The notes beneath the pieces were generated by a model. It had not been told where the DNA came from. It saw only the letters and a program-made list of their open reading frames with translations, and did no database searches. Of a stretch of 64,000 nucleotides of DNA, positions 3,916 through 44,614 are shown one piece after another. Where the stretch lies: NCBI GenBank assembly GCA_965205265.1, contig CBDBGH010000003.1, forward strand, positions 3,328,001-3,392,000, written 5' to 3'. The position numbers and the translations under genes were made by a program. Position 1 is the first letter of the stretch, and every line of letters begins with the position of its first letter. This DNA is from Alphaproteobacteria bacterium (GTDB lineage: Bacteria > Pseudomonadota > Alphaproteobacteria > Bin95).

Positions 3916-3990
3916 GGGCCACCTTTCCCCGGTGTTCCCGACTGGCCGGAGACAGCAATACGGCCCGCGGGCCCAGTTGGAGAACAGGGA

Positions 3991-39665: not shown

Positions 39666-40239
39666 ATGCCGTTCGAAGCCGTTCCGCTCTCCGGGTCCTT
39701 CGGCGCCGAGGTCCGGGGCGTCGATCTCGGCGCCCTCGACGATGCCGGCTTTGCCGAGGCGCATGCTGCGCTGCTCGAATACGGGGTGGTCGCCTTCCGG
39801 GACCAGAAGCTCGATCCGGATGCCTATCTCGCCTTCGCCAGACGCTGGGGCGGCATCCACCTGCATCCCCATCTGAAGGGCCTCGACGACCGGCCGGAGA
39901 TCATCGAGATCGTGCGCGAGGCGGACGACCCGACCGGCTTCGCCGACCACTGGCACACGGACCAGAGCTTCACACCGACACCCGCCATGGCGACCCTGCT
40001 CTACGCCAGGGAGGTGCCGGCGGCCGGCGGCGACACGCTGTTCGCCAATCTCTACGCCTCCTATGACGCGCTCTCGGACGGCATGAAGGCGGCGGCGGCG
40101 AAGCTCACCACCCACAATCTCTACAACAAGCACGCGCCGCGCTCGGCAAAGATGCAGAGGCGCGTGACCGAACAGGACAAGCCCGCGGAGCCGGCATACC
40201 ACCCGCTGGTGCGCGTCCACCCCGAGACCGGGCGCCCGG
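39666..40239 (+). pseudogene. TauD-family dioxygenase, 5' part (interrupted by IS21 element)
   Basis: WHTDQSF, GGDTLFAN, HPLVRVHPETGRP, then the IS end begins at 40240. Confidence 0.92.
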
Positions 40240-40333
40240 TGTTAGCGACGGTTAGGAAGGGCGTTTATTTGCTGGCGCGGAACGGCCGGTTTGTGCGGCT
40301 TGCGAGCAGCGTCGCATGGGTTAGGTGTTGCGT

Positions 40334-41227
40334 TCATCTGATTGGGCGGTCATCGGTTTCGAGCGGCTCGCCGTCGCGGTCACGGATGAGCATGTCGTTC
40401 CAGTCCTGGTTTTCGAGGGCCGGTCGCATTCGGACGATTCTTGTGTCGTTGTCTTGCATGCGGCGGGCGGCGTGATCGCCGTATCGTGTAGCGTCCCAGG
40501 CACAGAAGATACGGCGCGGGTTCCAGGCCTCGACCCATTTGGGGATTCTGGCCGTGATGGCGCCGGTGGAGACGACGGCGCATTTGCTGCGTTTTTCCGG
40601 GACGAGGTGGAGGGAGAGGATCGACAGGGCGTCGAGGGCGCTGCCGGTGAGGATGACGGTGCCGGGCCAGTCGGGCTCCCATGACATCCAGAAGCCGCCG
40701 TCTGCGGCCGGCTCCTGCGCTGCGGGGAGGGTCTCTATGCCGACCACCTTGCTGGCGGCGTTTCGGCGGAGGAACACGGGATTGCCGCGCCGGTCGGCAC
40801 GGATCAGGCCGAGGCCTCGGCATAGCTCGACGAGCGCGTCGGCGAGGCCGCGCTGCTCGATGAGGTATTGCCGCAGCGCCGGCCAGCGAGGGTCCTGGCA
40901 CGAGGGCTCCGCCTCACAGCGACTGTTCGGGAGCCGTGAGTGGCGCGGCAGTTGGGCGAGGAAGTCGAGGGCTTCGGTCGTTGGGCATCCGAGCGCATGA
41001 ACCGCCAGCTGGATGGCCCCGGCGCCTCCCTCTCCGCGCAGATGGTCGTAGAACATGAAGCGGTTGATGGAGAGGACCGAACCGGCTCGTCTCCAGCGCG
41101 CGGCATCGGCGGGATCGCGGCGATAGCCGAGGGCGTGGACCACGTCTTCGAGGGGGCAGCTTCGCAGCCCCTCGGCCCGCAGGCGGCGATCCCATGGATG
41201 CAGATGCTGCACGGCTGGCTCAGGCAT
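40334..41227 (-). CDS. DUF3991/TOPRIM-domain primase-like passenger protein (297 aa)
   Basis: [14 protein letters not shown]...LG N-domain; YLIEQRGL...[11 protein letters not shown] (DUF3991-like); [25 protein letters not shown]...QDWND (TOPRIM-like); start overlaps istB stop (ATGCCTGA). Confidence 0.75.
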
Positions 41228-42005
41228 CCCCCGTGTCTTGCGCCGTGCTCTTGCCCGCTCCTTTTGCCGATCGCCGCCGGCGGCGATCGGCGCTGCGCTG
41301 CTTCTGGCGTTCCTCGGCCTCCTTGCGGCGGTATGAGTCGCCGTCGATGGCGAGGATCTCGGCATTGTGGACGAGCCGGTCGACAAGGGCCACGAGGCAG
41401 GCGGCGTTGGGGAAGGCCTCGCTCCACTCGGCGAAGGGGCGGTTTGTGGTGATGATGGTGGAGCGCTGCTGGCTGCGGCTTGAGACGATATTGAACAGCA
41501 GGTCGGCATGACGGTTGGAGTAGGAGAGATATCCGACTTCGTCGATGACCAGGAGGTGCTGGCGGGCGTAGAAGCGCAGCCTGCGCTGGAGCATTGTGTC
41601 GGAGTCGATGGCGGCGAGCTCGCCGAGCAGGCTGGCGGCGGTTGCGAAGCGCACGGTGTGGCCTTCGAGGACGGCGCGGTGTGCGATATTGGCGGCGATT
41701 GTGGACTTGCCGACGCCGTTGGGGCCGATGAGGACGACATTGGCGCCCTCGCGGAGGAAGTTGAGGGTCATGAGGTCCTCGACGGCCATGCGGTCGCATC
41801 GCCTTGGCCAGTCCCAGTCGAAGTCGGCGAGCGGCTTGAACTGTCCGAGGCGGGCGGCGGTGAGGCGTCGCCTGAGGCTTCGGCTTCGCCTCTCTTCCTC
41901 TTCCCATGCGATCAGGGGCGGGAGCCAGTCGCGCTCCGCAACCTCGCTCCAGTGGGCGAGGAGGCCGTGCAGTCCGAGCGCCGTGGCGCGGTCCTTGAGG
42001 GTCAT
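41220..42005 (-). CDS. istB: IS21 helper AAA+ ATPase IstB
   Basis: Walker A GPNGVGKS, Walker [24 protein letters not shown]. Confidence 0.96.
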
Positions 42006-43507
42006 TCTTCGCTGTCCTCCTCGTGGTGGCTTGCGAGCCCGTCGTATCCGCCGAGGTCGTGATCGCGGACCGCGATATCGCGCAGTCTTGGATCGCCGGG
42101 CAGGTCGATGGGGATGGGTGGTGGCTCGTTGCGCTGTTCGCGCCGCCGGTTCAGGCTGAAGCGCACCGCATTGGGATGGGGGACGCCGCGCTCAAGGGCT
42201 TCATCGATGGCGGCTTCGAGTTCGACGGCTCCGTAGTCGTCGAGCAGGCGCAGCAGGGAGGCGACGGTTGTGCCGATATTGCCGCCGCGCCTGGCGGTCT
42301 CGGCAAGCAGGCGCTCGCTGTCGGGGGCGGCCTGGAGAAGGCGGCTCTGCCCGCGCAGGCGGTGGGCGTGACGTTTGAGCCTGACCAGCTCCTCGATGTG
42401 CTCGGGGGTCTCGATGCGGGCCGCCTTGTCGAAGCTGCGCGGATGACGGGCGACGGTGTCGGCGCCGTCGAGGATGCGTACCTCCTCCAGTGTCGCGACC
42501 ACGGTGAGGGTGCGCCGCGTATGGGTATGCGGGACGCTATAGTCATTGAGGTCGAACCTGGCGTAGGGGGTCTTGCCGATCCTGACCTCGACCCTCTCGT
42601 CGACGGGGGGCCGGTCGTCGGGCAGCGCCATCAGGGAGCCGCGCTCGCGCTCGAAGGCCTCGCGCACGGTGAGGGAGCGGTCGTCCGGCCAGCGACGGTC
42701 GGCGGCGACGCCGTCGCACCAGGCGCGGGCCCGGGCGTTCAGGTCGTCGAGGTCGCGCCAGGCGCGGGCGGCGAAGAAGTTGTCGCGCACATAGCGTATG
42801 GCGCGCTCCACGCGCCCCTTCTCGTTGCCGCGCGCGACCGCGACCGGCTTGGGCAGGAAGCGGTAGCGGGCGGCGAAGTCGAGGAGCCGGGGGTTGAACC
42901 GGATGGCGTCGCCCTGGCGCTCCAGCACGACGCTCTTCAGGTTGTCGTACCATAGCTCGCGGGGCACGCCCTGCCAGGCCTCGAAGGCCTCGACATGGCC
43001 GCGCAGGAAGTTGTCCATCGCGGCATTGAGGTAGAAGTGCAGGAAGATGCGGCGCGAGTAGCTCAGCACCATCACGAAGCCCATCAGCGGGCGCTCCGCG
43101 CGCCCGATCCTCACCTTGCCGAAGTGGGCCCAGTCCACCTGGGCCAGCTCGCCGGGCAGGGTCTTGAGGCGCAGATAGGCCTCGGCCACAGGCCGCGGGC
43201 GCTCCGGCGCGATCATGCGCCGGAAGTGGCTCTGGCTGCCCCGGTAGCCGCGCTCGACCGCCATCTGGTAGAGCCGGCTGGCTGGCAGCCTGGGCCAGAC
43301 CGCCAGGGTCTGGCGGATGAAGGGCCGGAACGGATCGATCATCGAAGCCCTGCGCCGCCTCTCACGCGCGGGCGCCCCGGCGGCCGCTACCGCGCGCTCG
43401 ACCGTGCCGTGGTGGACGCCGAGCTGGCGCGCGATCGTGCCGATCCTCCACTTCTCGGCAAAATACAGCCGCTGGATCTCGGCACGGGTCTGCTTGTCGA
43501 TCGCCAT
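42002..43507 (-). CDS. istA: IS21 DDE transposase IstA
   Basis: N-terminal HTH; QVDW (D), WYDNLKS (D), EKGRVER (E); NDYSVP. Confidence 0.96.
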   Translation of the reverse strand: MAIDKQTRAEIQRLYFAEKWRIGTIARQLGVHHGTVERAVAAAGAPARERRRRASMIDPFRPFIRQTLAVWPRLPASRLYQMAVERGYRGSQSHFRRMIAPERPRPVAEAYLRLKTLPGELAQVDWAHFGKVRIGRAERPLMGFVMVLSYSRRIFLHFYLNAAMDNFLRGHVEAFEAWQGVPRELWYDNLKSVVLERQGDAIRFNPRLLDFAARYRFLPKPVAVARGNEKGRVERAIRYVRDNFFAARAWRDLDDLNARARAWCDGVAADRRWPDDRSLTVREAFERERGSLMALPDDRPPVDERVEVRIGKTPYARFDLNDYSVPHTHTRRTLTVVATLEEVRILDGADTVARHPRSFDKAARIETPEHIEELVRLKRHAHRLRGQSRLLQAAPDSERLLAETARRGGNIGTTVASLLRLLDDYGAVELEAAIDEALERGVPHPNAVRFSLNRRREQRNEPPPIPIDLPGDPRLRDIAVRDHDLGGYDGLASHHEEDSEE

Positions 43508-43508
43508 C

Positions 43509-43943
43509 TCACTCCCTTCGCGCCTGGCGCAGGCCCGGATAGACCGCCAGGCCGCAGAACCGACCGCAGCGCTCGCAGCGGAACACCCGGGCGGGACGGT
43601 CGGGCCCGAAGGGCCGGGTTCCGGACCGCCCCGCCGGTATGCGCGCCACATCAGGACGCCGGCGCGCGACGGTCAAAGGGTGATGCGTCACTTTCTGCGC
43701 GATGGCCCGAACTGCCGGCTGCCGCACACGGCGCCGTTCGCGGTAGCGCCGCTGGCGCTCGGCATGCTTGTGACGGCCCCGGCGGCTGTTCTGGTAGCGC
43801 TGCCCCGCAAGGCGCACCGACCGACGCCGCGCCCGCCCGCTGCAACGCGGCGAACAGTAGATATGGCCAGAGTCGCAGCGCCGGCAGAGAACCACCTGGC
43901 GGCGGCACAGGGCGCAGGTGAACAGGCGGGCGGCGTTCCTCAT
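43509..43943 (-). CDS. Cys-rich basic putative zinc-finger protein inside the IS21 element (144 aa)
   Basis: CALC..CRRC..YCSPRC, Arg-rich helix, C-terminal CERCG.FC; stop lies 1 nt before the istA ATG. Confidence 0.72.
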   Translation of the reverse strand: MRNAARLFTCALCRRQVVLCRRCDSGHIYCSPRCSGRARRRSVRLAGQRYQNSRRGRHKHAERQRRYRERRRVRQPAVRAIAQKVTHHPLTVARRRPDVARIPAGRSGTRPFGPDRPARVFRCERCGRFCGLAVYPGLRQARRE

Positions 43944-44172
43944 CGCGACCGATGAGAACGGGGTGGACCCACGCCCGGACGCGCACGATACTGCGCTTCC
44001 GGGCCGCGCCTTGCATGGCTCGGGGGGTGCGGCGCCGGTCGTTGCCACCAAGCCAACGGGGCCGGCGCCGCATCGTTCTCAGAAGCCCCAGTCTACCCCC
44101 TGCCGCAGCCCGGGAACGGCCAACCCGGTCGCCAGGACGTCGCCGCCCTCCGGGAGGCGAAAATCTCAACGC

Positions 44173-44229
44173 GACGGGGGCCGAGGACTCCGGTCGGGCT
44201 ACGCCCTCCTTCCGTCCTCGGCCCCCGTC
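44173..44229. repeat. Perfect 16-bp inverted repeat enclosing a GGGC-TAC-GCCC mini-hairpin
   Basis: GACGGGGGCCGAGGAC (44173-44188) pairs with GTCCTCGGCCCCCGTC (44214-44229). Confidence 0.85.
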
Positions 44230-44325
44230 ATAAACCCGGCCGCGCCTGTCTCACGCTGTTTGTCGTGCGCACCACAAAAGCGCGCTACGCCAGCAAATAT
44301 GCGCCCTTTATGATAATCACCGACA

Positions 44326-44614
44326 CCCGGCGCTCTATCTGAGCGACTCGCGCAGCACGAGGCGCTTCCAGGGCATGACCGAGGAGGAGAGCCTGCCGCT
44401 GCTCGAATGGCTGATGGGCCACGCAACGCGGCCGGAATTCACCTGCCGGCTGCGCTGGGAAGTCGGCACGCTCGCCATCTGGGACAACCGCCGCCTGATG
44501 CACATGGCCGTCAACGACTATTTCGGCCAGCGCCGGGTCATGCAGCGCATCACCATCAAGGGCGGTCCCACAATCGGCATCCTCGACGCGGAGGCAGACC
44601 GGCGGGCGGCTTAG
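44326..44614 (+). pseudogene. TauD-family dioxygenase, 3' part
   Basis: Resumes in frame as PALYLSDSRSTRRFQGMTEEES...WDNRRLMH.A...RRVMQR. Confidence 0.92.

What the first reader, a model, noticed from the sequence alone, without database searches (positions are those of the whole stretch)
40240..44325. Four-gene IS21 element carrying a primase-like (DUF3991/TOPRIM) gene and a zinc-finger gene: possible self-priming transposon
Seen: a 4,086-bp unit with TGT...ACA imperfect IRs and a 5-bp CCCGG duplication. Inside is one tightly coupled minus-strand operon: Zn-finger ORF (stop 1 nt before istA), istA, istB (ATGA overlap), then a 297-aa DUF3991/TOPRIM-like ORF (ATGCCTGA overlap) that ends about 95 bp from the IR. 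Known: canonical IS21 elements are about 2-2.6 kb with only istA and istB, and rely on host replication to resolve transposition intermediates; DUF3991-TOPRIM proteins are usually plasmid/ICE primase-like proteins. Inference: the overlapping arrangement suggests the extra genes are part of the transposition machinery (priming or second-strand synthesis of an intermediate, or target selection) rather than random cargo.
Basis: partly seen in the sequence, partly recalled or inferred. Interest (0 to 1): 0.85.

Follow-up and report, generated by a model that had tools for sequence, protein, structure and literature searches.

The report
Four-gene IS21 element with degenerate primase
This is an active, many-copy IS21-type jumping gene with two extra conserved genes, a small zinc-finger protein and a primase-shaped protein that has lost its catalytic residues, and it points to a wider set of IS21 relatives that carry primase-like genes.

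Summary
Window 40240-44325 is a 4,086-bp IS21-family element with imperfect inverted repeats (27 of 38 nt) and a CCCGG duplication, inserted in a TauD-family gene. It carries four tightly packed minus-strand genes: Zn-finger ORF, istA, istB and a DUF3991/Toprim-like ORF.

It moves as one unit. The genome holds 14 full copies, and 11 of them have their own 5-7 bp duplications. The same gene order recurs in other genomes, where 41 of 45 full-length IstA hits have the fourth gene downstream.

The fourth protein folds like a DnaG/T7-type primase. Across this clade it lacks the Toprim catalytic Glu, the second Asp of DxD and a basic motif, all of which relatives keep. It is still under purifying selection (dN/dS 0.56). 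Self-priming by this element is therefore unlikely, and a non-catalytic accessory role is the best reading.

Two wider results emerged. The Zn-finger ORF is a conserved, mostly unannotated gene upstream of istA in IS21 copies of Burkholderiales and Rhizobiales plasmids. A distant IS21-like clade of about 5 kb carries five genes, including a primase-like gene with intact motifs.

My literature searches found no description of either arrangement. ISfinder could not be consulted.

The parts
40235..40239 (.). Target-site duplication CCCGG, left copy
   Evidence: A contig in run X20 joins 40234 to 44326 with 5 shared letters.
40240..40277 (.). Terminal inverted repeat at the istB/Toprim end (starts TGTTAGCG...)
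   Evidence: I1; 27 of 38 nt match the other end. The unitig boundary in run X1 falls exactly here.
40319..40349 (.). Inner direct repeat of the terminal sequence (71% to 40250-40280). Probably a second IstA binding site. It overlaps the stop of the fourth gene.
   Evidence: D9. The role as a binding site is inferred from the multiple terminal repeats described for IS21 (PMC10122671, passages).
40334..41227 (-). Fourth gene: 297-aa DnaG-like (Zn-less ZBD-like + DUF3991 + Toprim-like) protein with degenerate catalytic motifs. P0001.
41220..42005 (-). istB, the AAA+ helper ATPase (261 aa). P0004.
   Evidence: PF01695 193 bits; NF038214 212 bits, cut-off 200.
42002..43507 (-). istA, the DDE transposase (501 aa). 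P0003.
   Evidence: NF033546 249.7 bits, cut-off 160; rve; Mu-transpos_C_2.
43509..43943 (-). Zn-finger ORF (144 aa). P0002. Invariant Cys at 10, 13, 20, 30, 34, 123 and 126, His 87, and a basic helical hairpin. No known family.
44173..44229 (.). Perfect 16-bp stem hairpin in the 382-nt leader between the repeat tip and the Zn-finger ATG. A 53-nt stretch here is 83% identical to about 20 sites that lie beside copies of a second IS21-type element of the genome.
   Evidence: I14. (matches to element positions 3936-3988). (neighbouring IstB positions).
44288..44325 (.). Terminal inverted repeat at the Zn-finger/istA end (ends ...CACCGACA)
44326..44330 (.). Target-site duplication CCCGG, right copy
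39666..44614 (+). TauD/TfdA-family dioxygenase gene split by the insertion (5' part 39666-40239, 3' part from 44326 on)
   Evidence: Pfam TauD profile positions 4-192 and 209-267 on the two sides.

Best explanation
This is a recently active IS21-family insertion sequence whose mobile unit holds four co-oriented, translationally coupled genes.

Shown:
- IstA (DDE transposase) and IstB (AAA+ helper) are standard IS21 proteins.
- The whole 4,086 bp between the inverted repeats transposes as one unit and makes 5-7 bp duplications.
- The Zn-finger ORF is a conserved upstream gene of this IS21 subgroup.
- The fourth gene encodes a DnaG/T7-gp4-type primase fold: a Zn-less zinc-binding-domain look-alike followed by an RNA-polymerase/Toprim core.
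- Throughout this clade that protein has lost the catalytic Glu, the second Asp of DxD and a basic motif. It is nevertheless kept in frame under purifying selection.

Inferred:
- The ancestor of the fourth gene was a working element-borne primase of the DUF3991-Toprim family. That family is otherwise fused to conjugative relaxases and is also carried, with intact motifs, by other IS21-like lineages.
- In the window's clade it now acts without catalysis, as a DNA- or protein-binding accessory factor of transposition or of its regulation. It might hold or mark the strand-transfer intermediate, or recruit host replication or repair proteins.
- The Zn-finger protein is a DNA-binding cofactor or regulator made together with IstA.
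- The element does not prime its own DNA synthesis.
For: Mobility as one unit
- The genome has 12 uninterrupted copies and 2 copies with a nested IS, all at 99.98-100% identity.
- 11 of these 14 have their own direct repeats: 5 of 5 bp, 4 of 6 bp and 2 of 7 bp. The script flagged the five 5-bp cases. I read the other six by eye from the flanks it printed.
- In run X2 the element's contig depth is 514 against about 25 in the flanks.

Conservation of the four-gene order
- Nearly all complete loci among 62 loci from about 15 genomes keep the order. Identities are IstA 75-90%, IstB 80-92%, Zn-finger 57-86% and fourth gene 55-74%.
- That scan was seeded with the fourth gene, so I repeated it with IstA as query. 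In 37 genomes of the same order, 45 full-length IstA hits at 76% identity or above lay in 7 other genomes. 41 of them have the fourth gene 0.6-4.5 kb downstream on the same strand.

Selection
- dN/dS medians over 45 pairs: IstB 0.26, IstA 0.34, Zn-finger 0.42, fourth gene 0.60.
- Five independent pairs give 0.56 for the fourth gene, with a bootstrap interval of 0.47-0.67 and 0 of 1,000 replicates at or above 1.
- All internal indel runs are multiples of 3. The linker is unconstrained (1.34) and the C-terminal tail is the most constrained part (0.24).

Fold
- AlphaFold2 mean pLDDT is 86.7.
- The best Foldseek matches are the Aquifex primase ZBD+RPD (2au3, E 4.8e-7), E. coli DnaG cores, the T7 gp4 primase fragment (1nui) and a primase ZBD (1d0q).

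Loss of catalytic motifs
- The family profile aligns to the E. coli DnaG core at E about 0.01. It places the family's '...vEsAiDALS' on DnaG 'VVEGYMD' and its 'DaDraGd' on DnaG 'DGDRAGRD'.
- In the window's clade the Glu position is K (32), G (19), D (6), A (2), T (1) or N (1) in 61 of 61 motif instances from 62 loci.
- DxD reads DAT in 8 of 11 aligned sequences, and the Thr is invariant.

Wider association
- 70 of 80 metagenome loci holding intact-motif relatives have istB directly upstream on the same strand.
- 30 of 30 loci with room show five genes: Cys-rich ORF, ParB-HTH/KorB-like, IstA, IstB, DUF3991-Toprim. These lie inside inverted repeats 4.9-5.0 kb apart.

Zn-finger ORF in cultured bacteria
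- It lies directly upstream of istA in plasmid copies whose IstA is 59-62% identical. It was found in 31 records, and most matches have no annotated feature under them.

A copy without the fourth gene
- One relative (G013, L158) lacks it precisely. That copy is single, its Zn-finger ORF is broken after codon 40, and it is nested inside the clade that has the gene (96/95 support).
Against: - No experiment links either extra protein to transposition.
- The Top-less copy in G013 still has intact ends and a 5-bp duplication (CCGCA). Either the gene is dispensable for insertion or it was deleted afterwards. The data cannot tell which.
- dN/dS of 0.56-0.60 is about twice that of IstA and IstB, so constraint is weak. 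NG86 values in 68% G+C DNA are inflated for all four genes.
- High G+C also makes long open frames cheap, so an intact ORF alone proves little.
- Residues elsewhere (E165, D199, D245, D251 are conserved) could in principle rebuild a metal site. Loss of activity is read from motifs and was not measured.
- IstA relatives at about 60% identity do well without the fourth gene.
Confidence: 0.6

Rival explanations
1. Self-priming transposon. The fourth protein is an active primase that primes second-strand or gap synthesis on the transposition intermediate of this element.
For: The fold is that of DnaG/T7-type primases. Relatives with intact motifs sit in the same place behind istB in 70 of 80 metagenome loci. 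IstB is itself kin to DnaC-type helicase loaders (NCBIfam DnaC and DnaI hits). The idea remains plausible for those other lineages.
Against: In the window's clade the Glu aligned with the catalytic Glu of DnaG is absent in 61 of 61 instances and varies freely among K, G, D, A, T and N. DxD reads DAT and the SRK motif is lost. Toprim_3 scores 13.8 bits against a cut-off of 27.2. The branch leading to the clade is long (0.62) in the quick family tree.
Confidence: 0.08
2. Cargo with a function outside transposition. The two extra genes ride in the element but serve something else, such as interference with conjugative elements or plasmids, or some benefit to the host.
For: Both families have kin beside or inside conjugative relaxases. 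DUF3991-Toprim is fused to TrwC or MobV relaxases. A 60%-identical solo Zn-finger gene lies just downstream of a TrwC relaxase gene in this genome. Selection on the fourth gene is weaker than on IstA and IstB.
Against: The genes are translationally coupled to istA and istB, with a 1-nt spacer and an 8-nt overlap. The position behind istB is kept in two IS21 lineages whose IstA proteins are only 24-32% identical by tblastn. The Zn-finger ORF stays glued to istA across Alpha- and Betaproteobacteria. Ordinary cargo is rarely this constant in place and order.
Confidence: 0.2
3. Decaying relic. The fourth gene is a dead primase gene on its way out and has no function.
For: The catalytic motifs are lost. 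It has the highest dN/dS of the four genes. One lineage (G013) has deleted it. One copy in this genome carries a 1-nt deletion that splits the frame.
Against: dN/dS is 0.56, with 0 of 1,000 bootstrap replicates at or above 1. All folded domains score 0.50-0.56, the tail 0.24 and the linker 1.34. Every indel run is a multiple of 3. 96 alignment columns are invariant across 11 sequences at 59-74% identity. The gene is kept in 41 of 45 IstA-seeded hits.
Confidence: 0.1

Closest known systems
Canonical IS21 family elements (istA + istB between terminal inverted repeats)
   Same: IstA and IstB both score above NCBIfam's IS21 equivalog cut-offs. The istA/istB ATGA overlap, TG...CA ends with repeated terminal motifs and 5-7 bp duplications all fit.
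   Different: There are four genes, not two, in 4.1 kb. PMC10122671 (introduction passages read) describes family members as composed of two ORFs. The usual size of about 2-2.6 kb is recalled, not checked.
Unnamed IS21 subgroup on Burkholderiales and Rhizobiales plasmids (e.g. NZ_AP023183.1, NZ_AP025174.1)
   Same: IstA is 59-62% and IstB about 65% identical. The same Zn-finger ORF lies directly upstream of istA.
   Different: There is no primase-like gene. A roughly 70-aa ORF follows istB instead. The Zn-finger ORF is mostly unannotated there.
Five-gene IS21-like elements of metagenomes (L105, L129, L152 and others)
   Same: A DUF3991-Toprim gene sits directly behind istB, a Cys-rich ORF sits at the front, and all genes lie inside inverted repeats.
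   Different: IstA and IstB are only 24-36% identical to the window's. There is an extra ParB-HTH/KorB-like gene and the Toprim motifs are intact. Homology of the two Cys-rich ORFs is not shown (hhalign E 0.054 and 0.077).
DnaG-type primases, including the T7 gp4 primase fragment
   Same: Overall fold: a ZBD-like domain followed by an RNA-polymerase/Toprim core. Motif register was confirmed by profile alignment to E. coli DnaG.
   Different: There are no zinc ligands in the N-terminal domain, no catalytic Glu, only half of DxD, and no helicase-binding or helicase domain.
Relaxase-primase fusions of conjugative and mobilisable plasmids (TrwC or MobV + DUF3991 + Toprim)
   Same: Same DUF3991-Toprim family.
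   Different: Those are fused to relaxases and keep Toprim scores above Pfam cut-offs. Here the protein stands alone inside an IS.
Phage Mu and Tn7 (DDE transposase + AAA+ regulator + extra proteins)
   Same: A DDE transposase with a dedicated AAA+ partner plus additional element-encoded factors. The likeness of IstA/IstB to MuA/MuB and TnsB/TnsC is stated in PMC10122671 (passages read).
   Different: Neither Mu nor Tn7 is known to me to carry a primase-like gene (recalled). No homology between the extra proteins was found.

Membership tests
IS21 family | IstA-type DDE transposase | tested here: met
   NF033546 249.7 bits (cut-off 160). Pfam rve and Mu-transpos_C_2.
IS21 family | IstB AAA+ helper encoded just downstream of istA | tested here: met
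   NF038214 212.2 bits (cut-off 200), PF01695 193 bits, ATGA overlap with istA.
IS21 family | Terminal inverted repeats ending TG...CA, with repeated terminal motifs | tested here: met
   27 of 38 nt match. Inner repeat at 40319-40349.
IS21 family | Short target duplications (the 4-8 bp range is recalled) | tested here: met
   5, 6 or 7 bp in 11 of 14 full copies.
IS21 family | Only two ORFs | tested here: not met
   Four conserved ORFs lie inside the repeats.
Pfam DUF3991 | Score above the gathering cut-off | tested here: met
   27.9 bits against 24.5, residues 120-165.
Toprim domain (Pfam Toprim_2, Toprim_3) | Score above the gathering cut-off | tested here: not met
   Toprim_3 13.8 bits against 27.2. 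Toprim_2 is not listed for P0001. Relatives P0011, P0014, P0018 and P0026 pass Toprim_2.
DnaG-type primase | ZBD + RNA-polymerase/Toprim fold | tested here: met
   Foldseek: 2au3 E 4.8e-7, then 1dde, 1eqn, 1nui and 1d0q.
DnaG-type primase | Catalytic Glu of the Toprim fold | tested here: not met
   Gly in P0001. K, G, D, A, T or N in 61 of 61 instances in the clade.
DnaG-type primase | DxD metal-binding motif | tested here: not met
   DAT in P0001, with the Thr invariant in the clade.
DnaG-type primase | Zinc ligands in the N-terminal domain | tested here: not met
   The aligned N-terminal domain has no Cys/His quartet, in this clade or in the wider DUF3991 family. The expected ligand pattern is recalled.
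DnaG-type primase | Primer synthesis | not testable with these tools
   Needs a biochemical assay.

The most novel reading that the evidence does not exclude
Several IS21-family lineages carry their own DnaG-type primase, and in the five-gene clade also a ParB-like and a Cys-rich protein. The reason would be that their transposition passes through a replicated intermediate, either copy-out synthesis or a short-lived circular episome, that the element primes itself. The window's clade would then have converted that primase into a non-catalytic cofactor that it still needs. This would add an element-encoded replication module to a family thought to consist of a transposase and an ATPase only.
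Probability: 0.25. Interest if true: 0.8.

Novelty: new variant of a known kind. Interest (0 to 1): 0.65.

Why it matters
IS21 is a structural model for transposases that depend on an AAA+ partner, and it is described as a two-gene element (PMC10122671, passages read). Three results go beyond that picture.

- An unannotated Zn-finger gene is glued to istA in a whole subgroup, including copies in cultured Burkholderia, Cupriavidus and Mesorhizobium.
- Primase-like genes sit behind istB in at least two distant IS21 lineages.
- One of these lineages, active and at high copy number, keeps a primase fold stripped of its catalytic residues.

How IS21 intermediates are finished, by second-strand processing, gap filling or replication, is to my recollection still open. 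These natural variants offer matched systems to test it: an intact primase, a degenerate primase and no primase.

There is also a practical point. Genome annotation currently misses the Zn-finger ORF and labels the fourth gene as an unrelated hypothetical or Toprim protein.

Tried and rejected
Searches and predictions that gave nothing usable
I did not try it again.
- Megablast of the element against plasmids found no match.
- phmmer of P0001 against PDB sequences found nothing. P0002 gave only chance-level hits with E above 0.4.
- PHROGs found nothing for either extra protein.
- The ESM Atlas gave only 'hypothetical' clusters for P0002.
- The AlphaFold2 model of the Zn-finger protein has mean pLDDT 58.6, so I ran no fold search on it.
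- The consensus promoter scan found 0 sites. Terminator-like sites (3 found) were within the shuffle range.
- Complex prediction on IstB plus the fourth protein gave no answer. It counts neither for nor against binding.

Tests that came out negative or inconclusive
- Profile-profile comparison of the window's Zn-finger family with the Cys-rich ORF of the five-gene clade gave E 0.054 and 0.077. The motif register was the same in both runs, but the result is not significant, so homology is left open.
- Orientation against replication: cumulative GC skew puts the origin near 4.3-4.4 Mb and the terminus near 1.5 Mb. A ParB_N hit at 3.97 Mb suggests a slightly different origin. Either way 5-6 of the 14 copies are co-directional and 8-9 head-on, so there is no bias.
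- tblastn of P0002 against plasmids found nothing, although the homologous ORF of L156 used as query found 31 records. I take as a filter or sensitivity miss, not as absence.
- RepC (PF03428) and ParB_N (PF02195) searches found no hit inside C3:4.91-5.34 Mb. A plasmid origin for that segment is therefore not supported by these two families.

Limits of what was run
I draw nothing from them about habitat.
- The Top family tree is only the quick tree with SH-aLRT support. The careful search did not finish in 300 s and I did not resume it.
- dN/dS used 10 of the 16 representative loci. I left out L032, L043 and L054 as near-duplicates of L031, L033 and L053, and L051, L062 and L070 as partial genes.

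Literature
- Five full-text searches found no paper that describes an IS21 element with a Toprim, DUF3991 or primase gene or with such extra ORFs: IS21+Toprim; DUF3991; 'IS21 family'+'passenger gene'; IstB+Toprim+ParB; IS21+istB+primase.
- I read passages of PMC13055273, PMC7371123, PMC8649781 and PMC10122671.
- PMC11208146 and PMC12486865 I saw only as search listings with the start of the abstract.
- ISfinder and TnPedia could not be consulted. Supplements were not opened.

Full report
**1. What is at the coordinates**

The unit runs from 40240 to 44325 (4,086 bp). Its ends read TGT...ACA, and 27 of the first 38 nt of the two ends are complementary. CCCGG flanks it on both sides.

Four genes lie on the minus strand:
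- a 144-aa Cys-rich ORF (43943-43509), whose stop is followed by one base and then the istA ATG;
- istA (43507-42002, 501 aa);
- istB (42005-41220, 261 aa), overlapping istA by ATGA;
- a 297-aa ORF (41227-40334), overlapping istB by ATGCCTGA and ending 94 nt from the tip, inside an inner copy of the terminal repeat.

IstA and IstB pass NCBIfam's IS21 equivalog cut-offs (249.7 against 160, and 212.2 against 200). The fourth ORF passes Pfam DUF3991 (27.9 against 24.5) but not Toprim_3 (13.8 against 27.2). The Cys-rich ORF matches nothing. The element splits a TauD-family gene.

**2. It is a live mobile unit, and all four genes move together**

The host genome is 5.70 Mb in 3 contigs at about 68% G+C. 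It holds 12 uninterrupted copies at 99.98-100% identity, 2 further full copies that each carry a nested 1,051-bp IS, and several fragments.

Of the 14 full copies, 11 have their own direct repeats: five of 5 bp, four of 6 bp and two of 7 bp. The script flagged the 5-bp cases. I read the others from the printed flanks.

Two of the three exceptions have swapped flanks (see section 10).

The two copies with the nested IS630-like element carry it at the same point but sit at different sites with different duplications. The 5.1-kb composite has therefore moved as well.

Public runs give independent support:
- In X1 the element is a unitig of exactly 4,086 nt with no differences.
- In X2 its depth is 514 against about 25 for the flanks.
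- In X20 a contig joins 40234 to 44326, which is the unoccupied TauD site of a relative.
- X20 is an RNA library. Its contigs, from a relative at roughly 90-95% identity, cover all four genes. That is a weak hint of expression, because DNA carry-over cannot be excluded.

**3. The four-gene order is conserved elsewhere**

A scan of species-representative genomes with the fourth protein found 62 loci in about 15 assemblies. They are labelled Alphaproteobacteria, Defluviicoccus, Dehalococcoidia, Chloroflexota, Gemmatimonadota and Pseudomonadales, and often hold many copies per genome.

Nearly all complete loci show Zn-finger, IstA, IstB and fourth gene in that order and tightly packed.

That scan was seeded with the fourth gene, so I repeated it with IstA in the 37 genomes of the same order. 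This gave 45 full-length hits at 76% identity or above in 7 other genomes, all in the same genus. 41 of them have the fourth gene downstream.

The clearest exception is a single copy in G013 (L158):
- The fourth gene is precisely absent.
- istB is followed after about 20 nt by the 36-nt terminal repeat.
- The Zn-finger ORF is broken after codon 40.
- The copy has a 5-bp duplication (CCGCA).
- In an IstA+IstB tree it nests inside the gene-bearing clade with 96/95 support.

So the gene can be lost. The one lineage that lost it is a decaying singleton, which is suggestive but anecdotal.

**4. Selection**

NG86 dN/dS medians over 45 pairs are 0.26 (IstB), 0.34 (IstA), 0.42 (Zn-finger) and 0.60 (fourth gene).

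For five phylogenetically independent pairs the fourth gene gives 0.56, with a bootstrap interval of 0.47-0.67 and 0 of 1,000 replicates at or above 1. Its folded domains all score 0.50-0.56, the inter-domain linker 1.34 and the acidic C-terminal tail 0.24. Every internal gap run in the DNA alignment is a multiple of 3.

The protein is therefore maintained, though less strictly than the transposition core. Absolute values are inflated by the G+C bias.

**5. What the fourth protein is**

The AlphaFold2 model, built from a 33-sequence alignment, has mean pLDDT 86.7. Its best matches in the PDB are DnaG-type primases:
- Aquifex ZBD+RPD (2au3, E 4.8e-7);
- E. coli, M. tuberculosis and S. aureus DnaG cores;
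- the T7 gp4 primase fragment (1nui);
- Twinkle;
- for the N-terminal part, a primase zinc-binding domain (1d0q).

The library of 1.84 billion representatives holds 721 related clusters at E up to 0.001. These include stand-alone proteins of about 290 aa at 40-47% identity, and long proteins in which the module is fused to TrwC relaxases. In plasmids it is fused to MobV relaxases.

A profile of the family aligns to the E. coli DnaG core at E about 0.01. This fixes the register: the family's Glu in '...vEsAiDALS' lies on the Glu of DnaG 'VVEGYMD', and 'DaDraGd' lies on 'DGDRAGRD'.

Relatives keep these residues and a 'GSRK' motif. The window's clade does not:
- The Glu position is K (32), G (19), D (6), A (2), T (1) or N (1) in 61 of 61 instances.
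- DxD is DAT in 8 of 11 aligned sequences, with an invariant Thr.
- The SRK motif is gone.

The N-terminal domain has the shape of a primase zinc-binding domain but no Cys/His ligands, in the whole family. That these positions are the catalytic and metal-binding ones of DnaG is established knowledge that I recall. Their loss is a sequence observation, not an activity measurement.

**6. The association of IS21 with primase-like genes is broad**

A metagenome scan used an alignment of intact-motif relatives. Its two search patterns were GGGGAIDL and ESA[IV]DALS, so Glu is partly selected for. It returned 80 loci.
- In 70 of them istB lies directly upstream on the same strand.
- 7 have no istB despite at least 300 nt of upstream sequence, 1 has istB on the other strand, and 2 have no room.
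- All 30 loci with room for a full element show five genes: a Cys-rich ORF (no Pfam family), a ParB-HTH/KorB-like protein, IstA, IstB, and DUF3991-Toprim_2 with intact motifs.
- In the three loci that showed them, inverted repeats with tandem sub-repeats bound these genes and lie 4.9-5.0 kb apart.

The IstA and IstB of this clade are only 24-36% identical to the window's.

A third arrangement, with the primase-like gene convergent behind istB, occurs in L159 (same genus as the window's genome) and in L075.

In a quick family tree the window's clade is monophyletic on a long stem (0.62). It groups with L159-type and P0011-type proteins (96 SH-aLRT). The five-gene clade groups with the relaxase-fused forms on the other side of the midpoint. 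That fits at least two separate unions of IS21 with this module, but the tree is quick and unrooted.

**7. The Zn-finger ORF has its own, deeper history with istA**

The closest annotated IstA proteins (59-62% identity) are on plasmids of Paraburkholderia, Burkholderia, Caballeronia, Cupriavidus, Aromatoleum and Alicycliphilus.

Two such loci (L156, L157) have istA, istB and a roughly 70-aa ORF, and no primase-like gene. Both hold an open frame directly upstream of istA that is 60-64% identical to the N-terminal half of P0002, with the same Cys pattern.

With that ORF as query, 31 plasmid records match. Most have no annotated feature under the match, and the coordinates abut the IstA hits.

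The family has 56 clusters in the large protein collection, all unnamed. Its invariant residues are Cys 10, 13, 20, 30, 34, 123 and 126, His 87, and a basic 'RYQ...GRHKHAERQRRYR' hairpin. The hairpin is the only part that the low-confidence model predicts well.

A 60%-identical solo copy, with one Cys replaced, lies just downstream of a 1,630-aa TrwC relaxase gene elsewhere in this genome.

**8. How it most likely works**

Shown: IstA and IstB are ordinary IS21 proteins, and the element makes IS21-type insertions.

From the literature passages I read (PMC10122671): IstA synapses and cleaves the ends, while IstB captures target DNA and recruits the transposase.

Inferred:
- The Zn-finger protein is made from the same message just ahead of IstA, and its ORF is kept across the whole subgroup. 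It is most likely a DNA-binding cofactor or regulator of the transposase.
- The fourth protein descends from an element-borne primase. In this clade it is most likely a non-catalytic factor that still binds DNA or partner proteins.
- Candidate roles are recognising or holding the strand-transfer intermediate, or recruiting host replication or repair proteins. Its most constrained part is an acidic C-terminal tail, a kind of motif that often docks partners (recalled).

I put 0.6 on this package, 0.2 on unrelated cargo, 0.1 on a relic and 0.08 on true self-priming. For the five-gene clade, whose motifs are intact, self-priming remains a live hypothesis.

**9. Comparison with what is known, and novelty**

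By its IstA, IstB, ends and duplications the element is a member of the IS21 family. It departs from the family's two-ORF definition.

The fourth protein has the fold of a DnaG-type primase, but I cannot file it as a primase because two catalytic features were tested and not met.

I found no paper that describes IS21 elements with primase-like, ParB-like or Zn-finger genes. ISfinder could not be checked, so 'undescribed' is provisional. I rate it a new variant of a known kind.

**10. Seen in passing**

The copies at C3:4,904,715 and C3:5,341,828 are in the same orientation and have exchanged flanks. The outer flanks share CCCGG and the inner flanks share ACCGA. This is the pattern left by recombination or replicon fusion between two copies, enclosing about 433 kb. 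Searches for RepC and ParB_N found nothing inside that segment, so its origin is open.

The genome also holds three other IS21-type elements, about 38 IstB matches in all. Their IstB is about 33% identical to the window's, and they have neither extra gene.

Noticed in passing
L156 2586-2999 (NZ_AP023183.1), L157 about 2564-2990 (NZ_AP025174.1), and 29 further plasmid records: A conserved Zn-finger ORF lies directly upstream of istA in IS21 copies of Burkholderia, Paraburkholderia, Caballeronia, Cupriavidus, Mesorhizobium, Rhizobium, Aromatoleum and Alicycliphilus plasmids. Most matches have no annotated feature under them. In L156 a hypothetical gene is annotated on the opposite strand instead.
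   Followed up: partly
L105 168-4838, L129, L152 732-5704, L123 2056-6978, and 30 loci in all: An IS21-like clade of about 5 kb with five genes inside inverted repeats: a Cys-rich ORF, a ParB-HTH/KorB-like protein, IstA, IstB, and DUF3991-Toprim with intact catalytic motifs. It is common in metagenome contigs.
   Followed up: partly
L159 51-3295 (G003:C682) and L075: A third arrangement. An IS21-type istA-istB pair (about 30% identical to the window's) is followed 25 bp later by a convergent, intact-motif DUF3991-Toprim gene. It was found in a genome of the same genus as the window's genome.
   Followed up: no
own genome C3:365946-366347 (L155 7929-8348, minus strand), outside the window: A solo homologue of the Zn-finger ORF (60% identical, one conserved Cys replaced) lies directly downstream of a 1,630-aa TrwC relaxase/helicase gene.
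   Followed up: partly
own genome C3:3728904-3729954 and C3:4998892-4999942. Corresponds to window position about 40322-40324 in those copies.: A 1,051-bp IS630-like element (7 full copies in the genome) is nested at the same point of two copies of the four-gene element. Those two copies sit at different sites with different 6-bp duplications, so the composite has transposed.
   Followed up: yes
own genome C3:4904715-4908800 and C3:5341828-5345913: Two same-orientation copies have exchanged flanks. The outer flanks share CCCGG and the inner flanks share ACCGA. This is a signature of recombination or replicon fusion enclosing about 433 kb, a region with unusually strong GC skew. No RepC or ParB_N hit lies inside it.
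   Followed up: partly
window 44175-44227: A 53-nt stretch around a perfect 16-bp hairpin in the element's leader is 83% identical to about 20 sites that lie beside copies of a different IS21-type element of the same genome. This may be a shared regulatory or insulating structure.
   Followed up: no
own genome, contig C3 (for example 429445-430146, 3450899-3451606, 1221915-1222613): The genome is rich in insertion sequences. Three other IS21-type elements, about 38 IstB matches in all, have neither the Zn-finger nor the primase-like gene.
   Followed up: partly
own genome C3:5286699-5290783: One copy is 4,085 bp long. A 1-nt deletion splits the primase-like ORF into two frames. The copy still has a 5-bp duplication (TCCCG).
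   Followed up: no
window 40334-40369 (residues 286-297 of P0001): The acidic C-terminal tail (consensus ...GEPLETDDR...) is the most constrained part of the fourth protein (dN/dS 0.24) and is specific to this clade.
   Followed up: no
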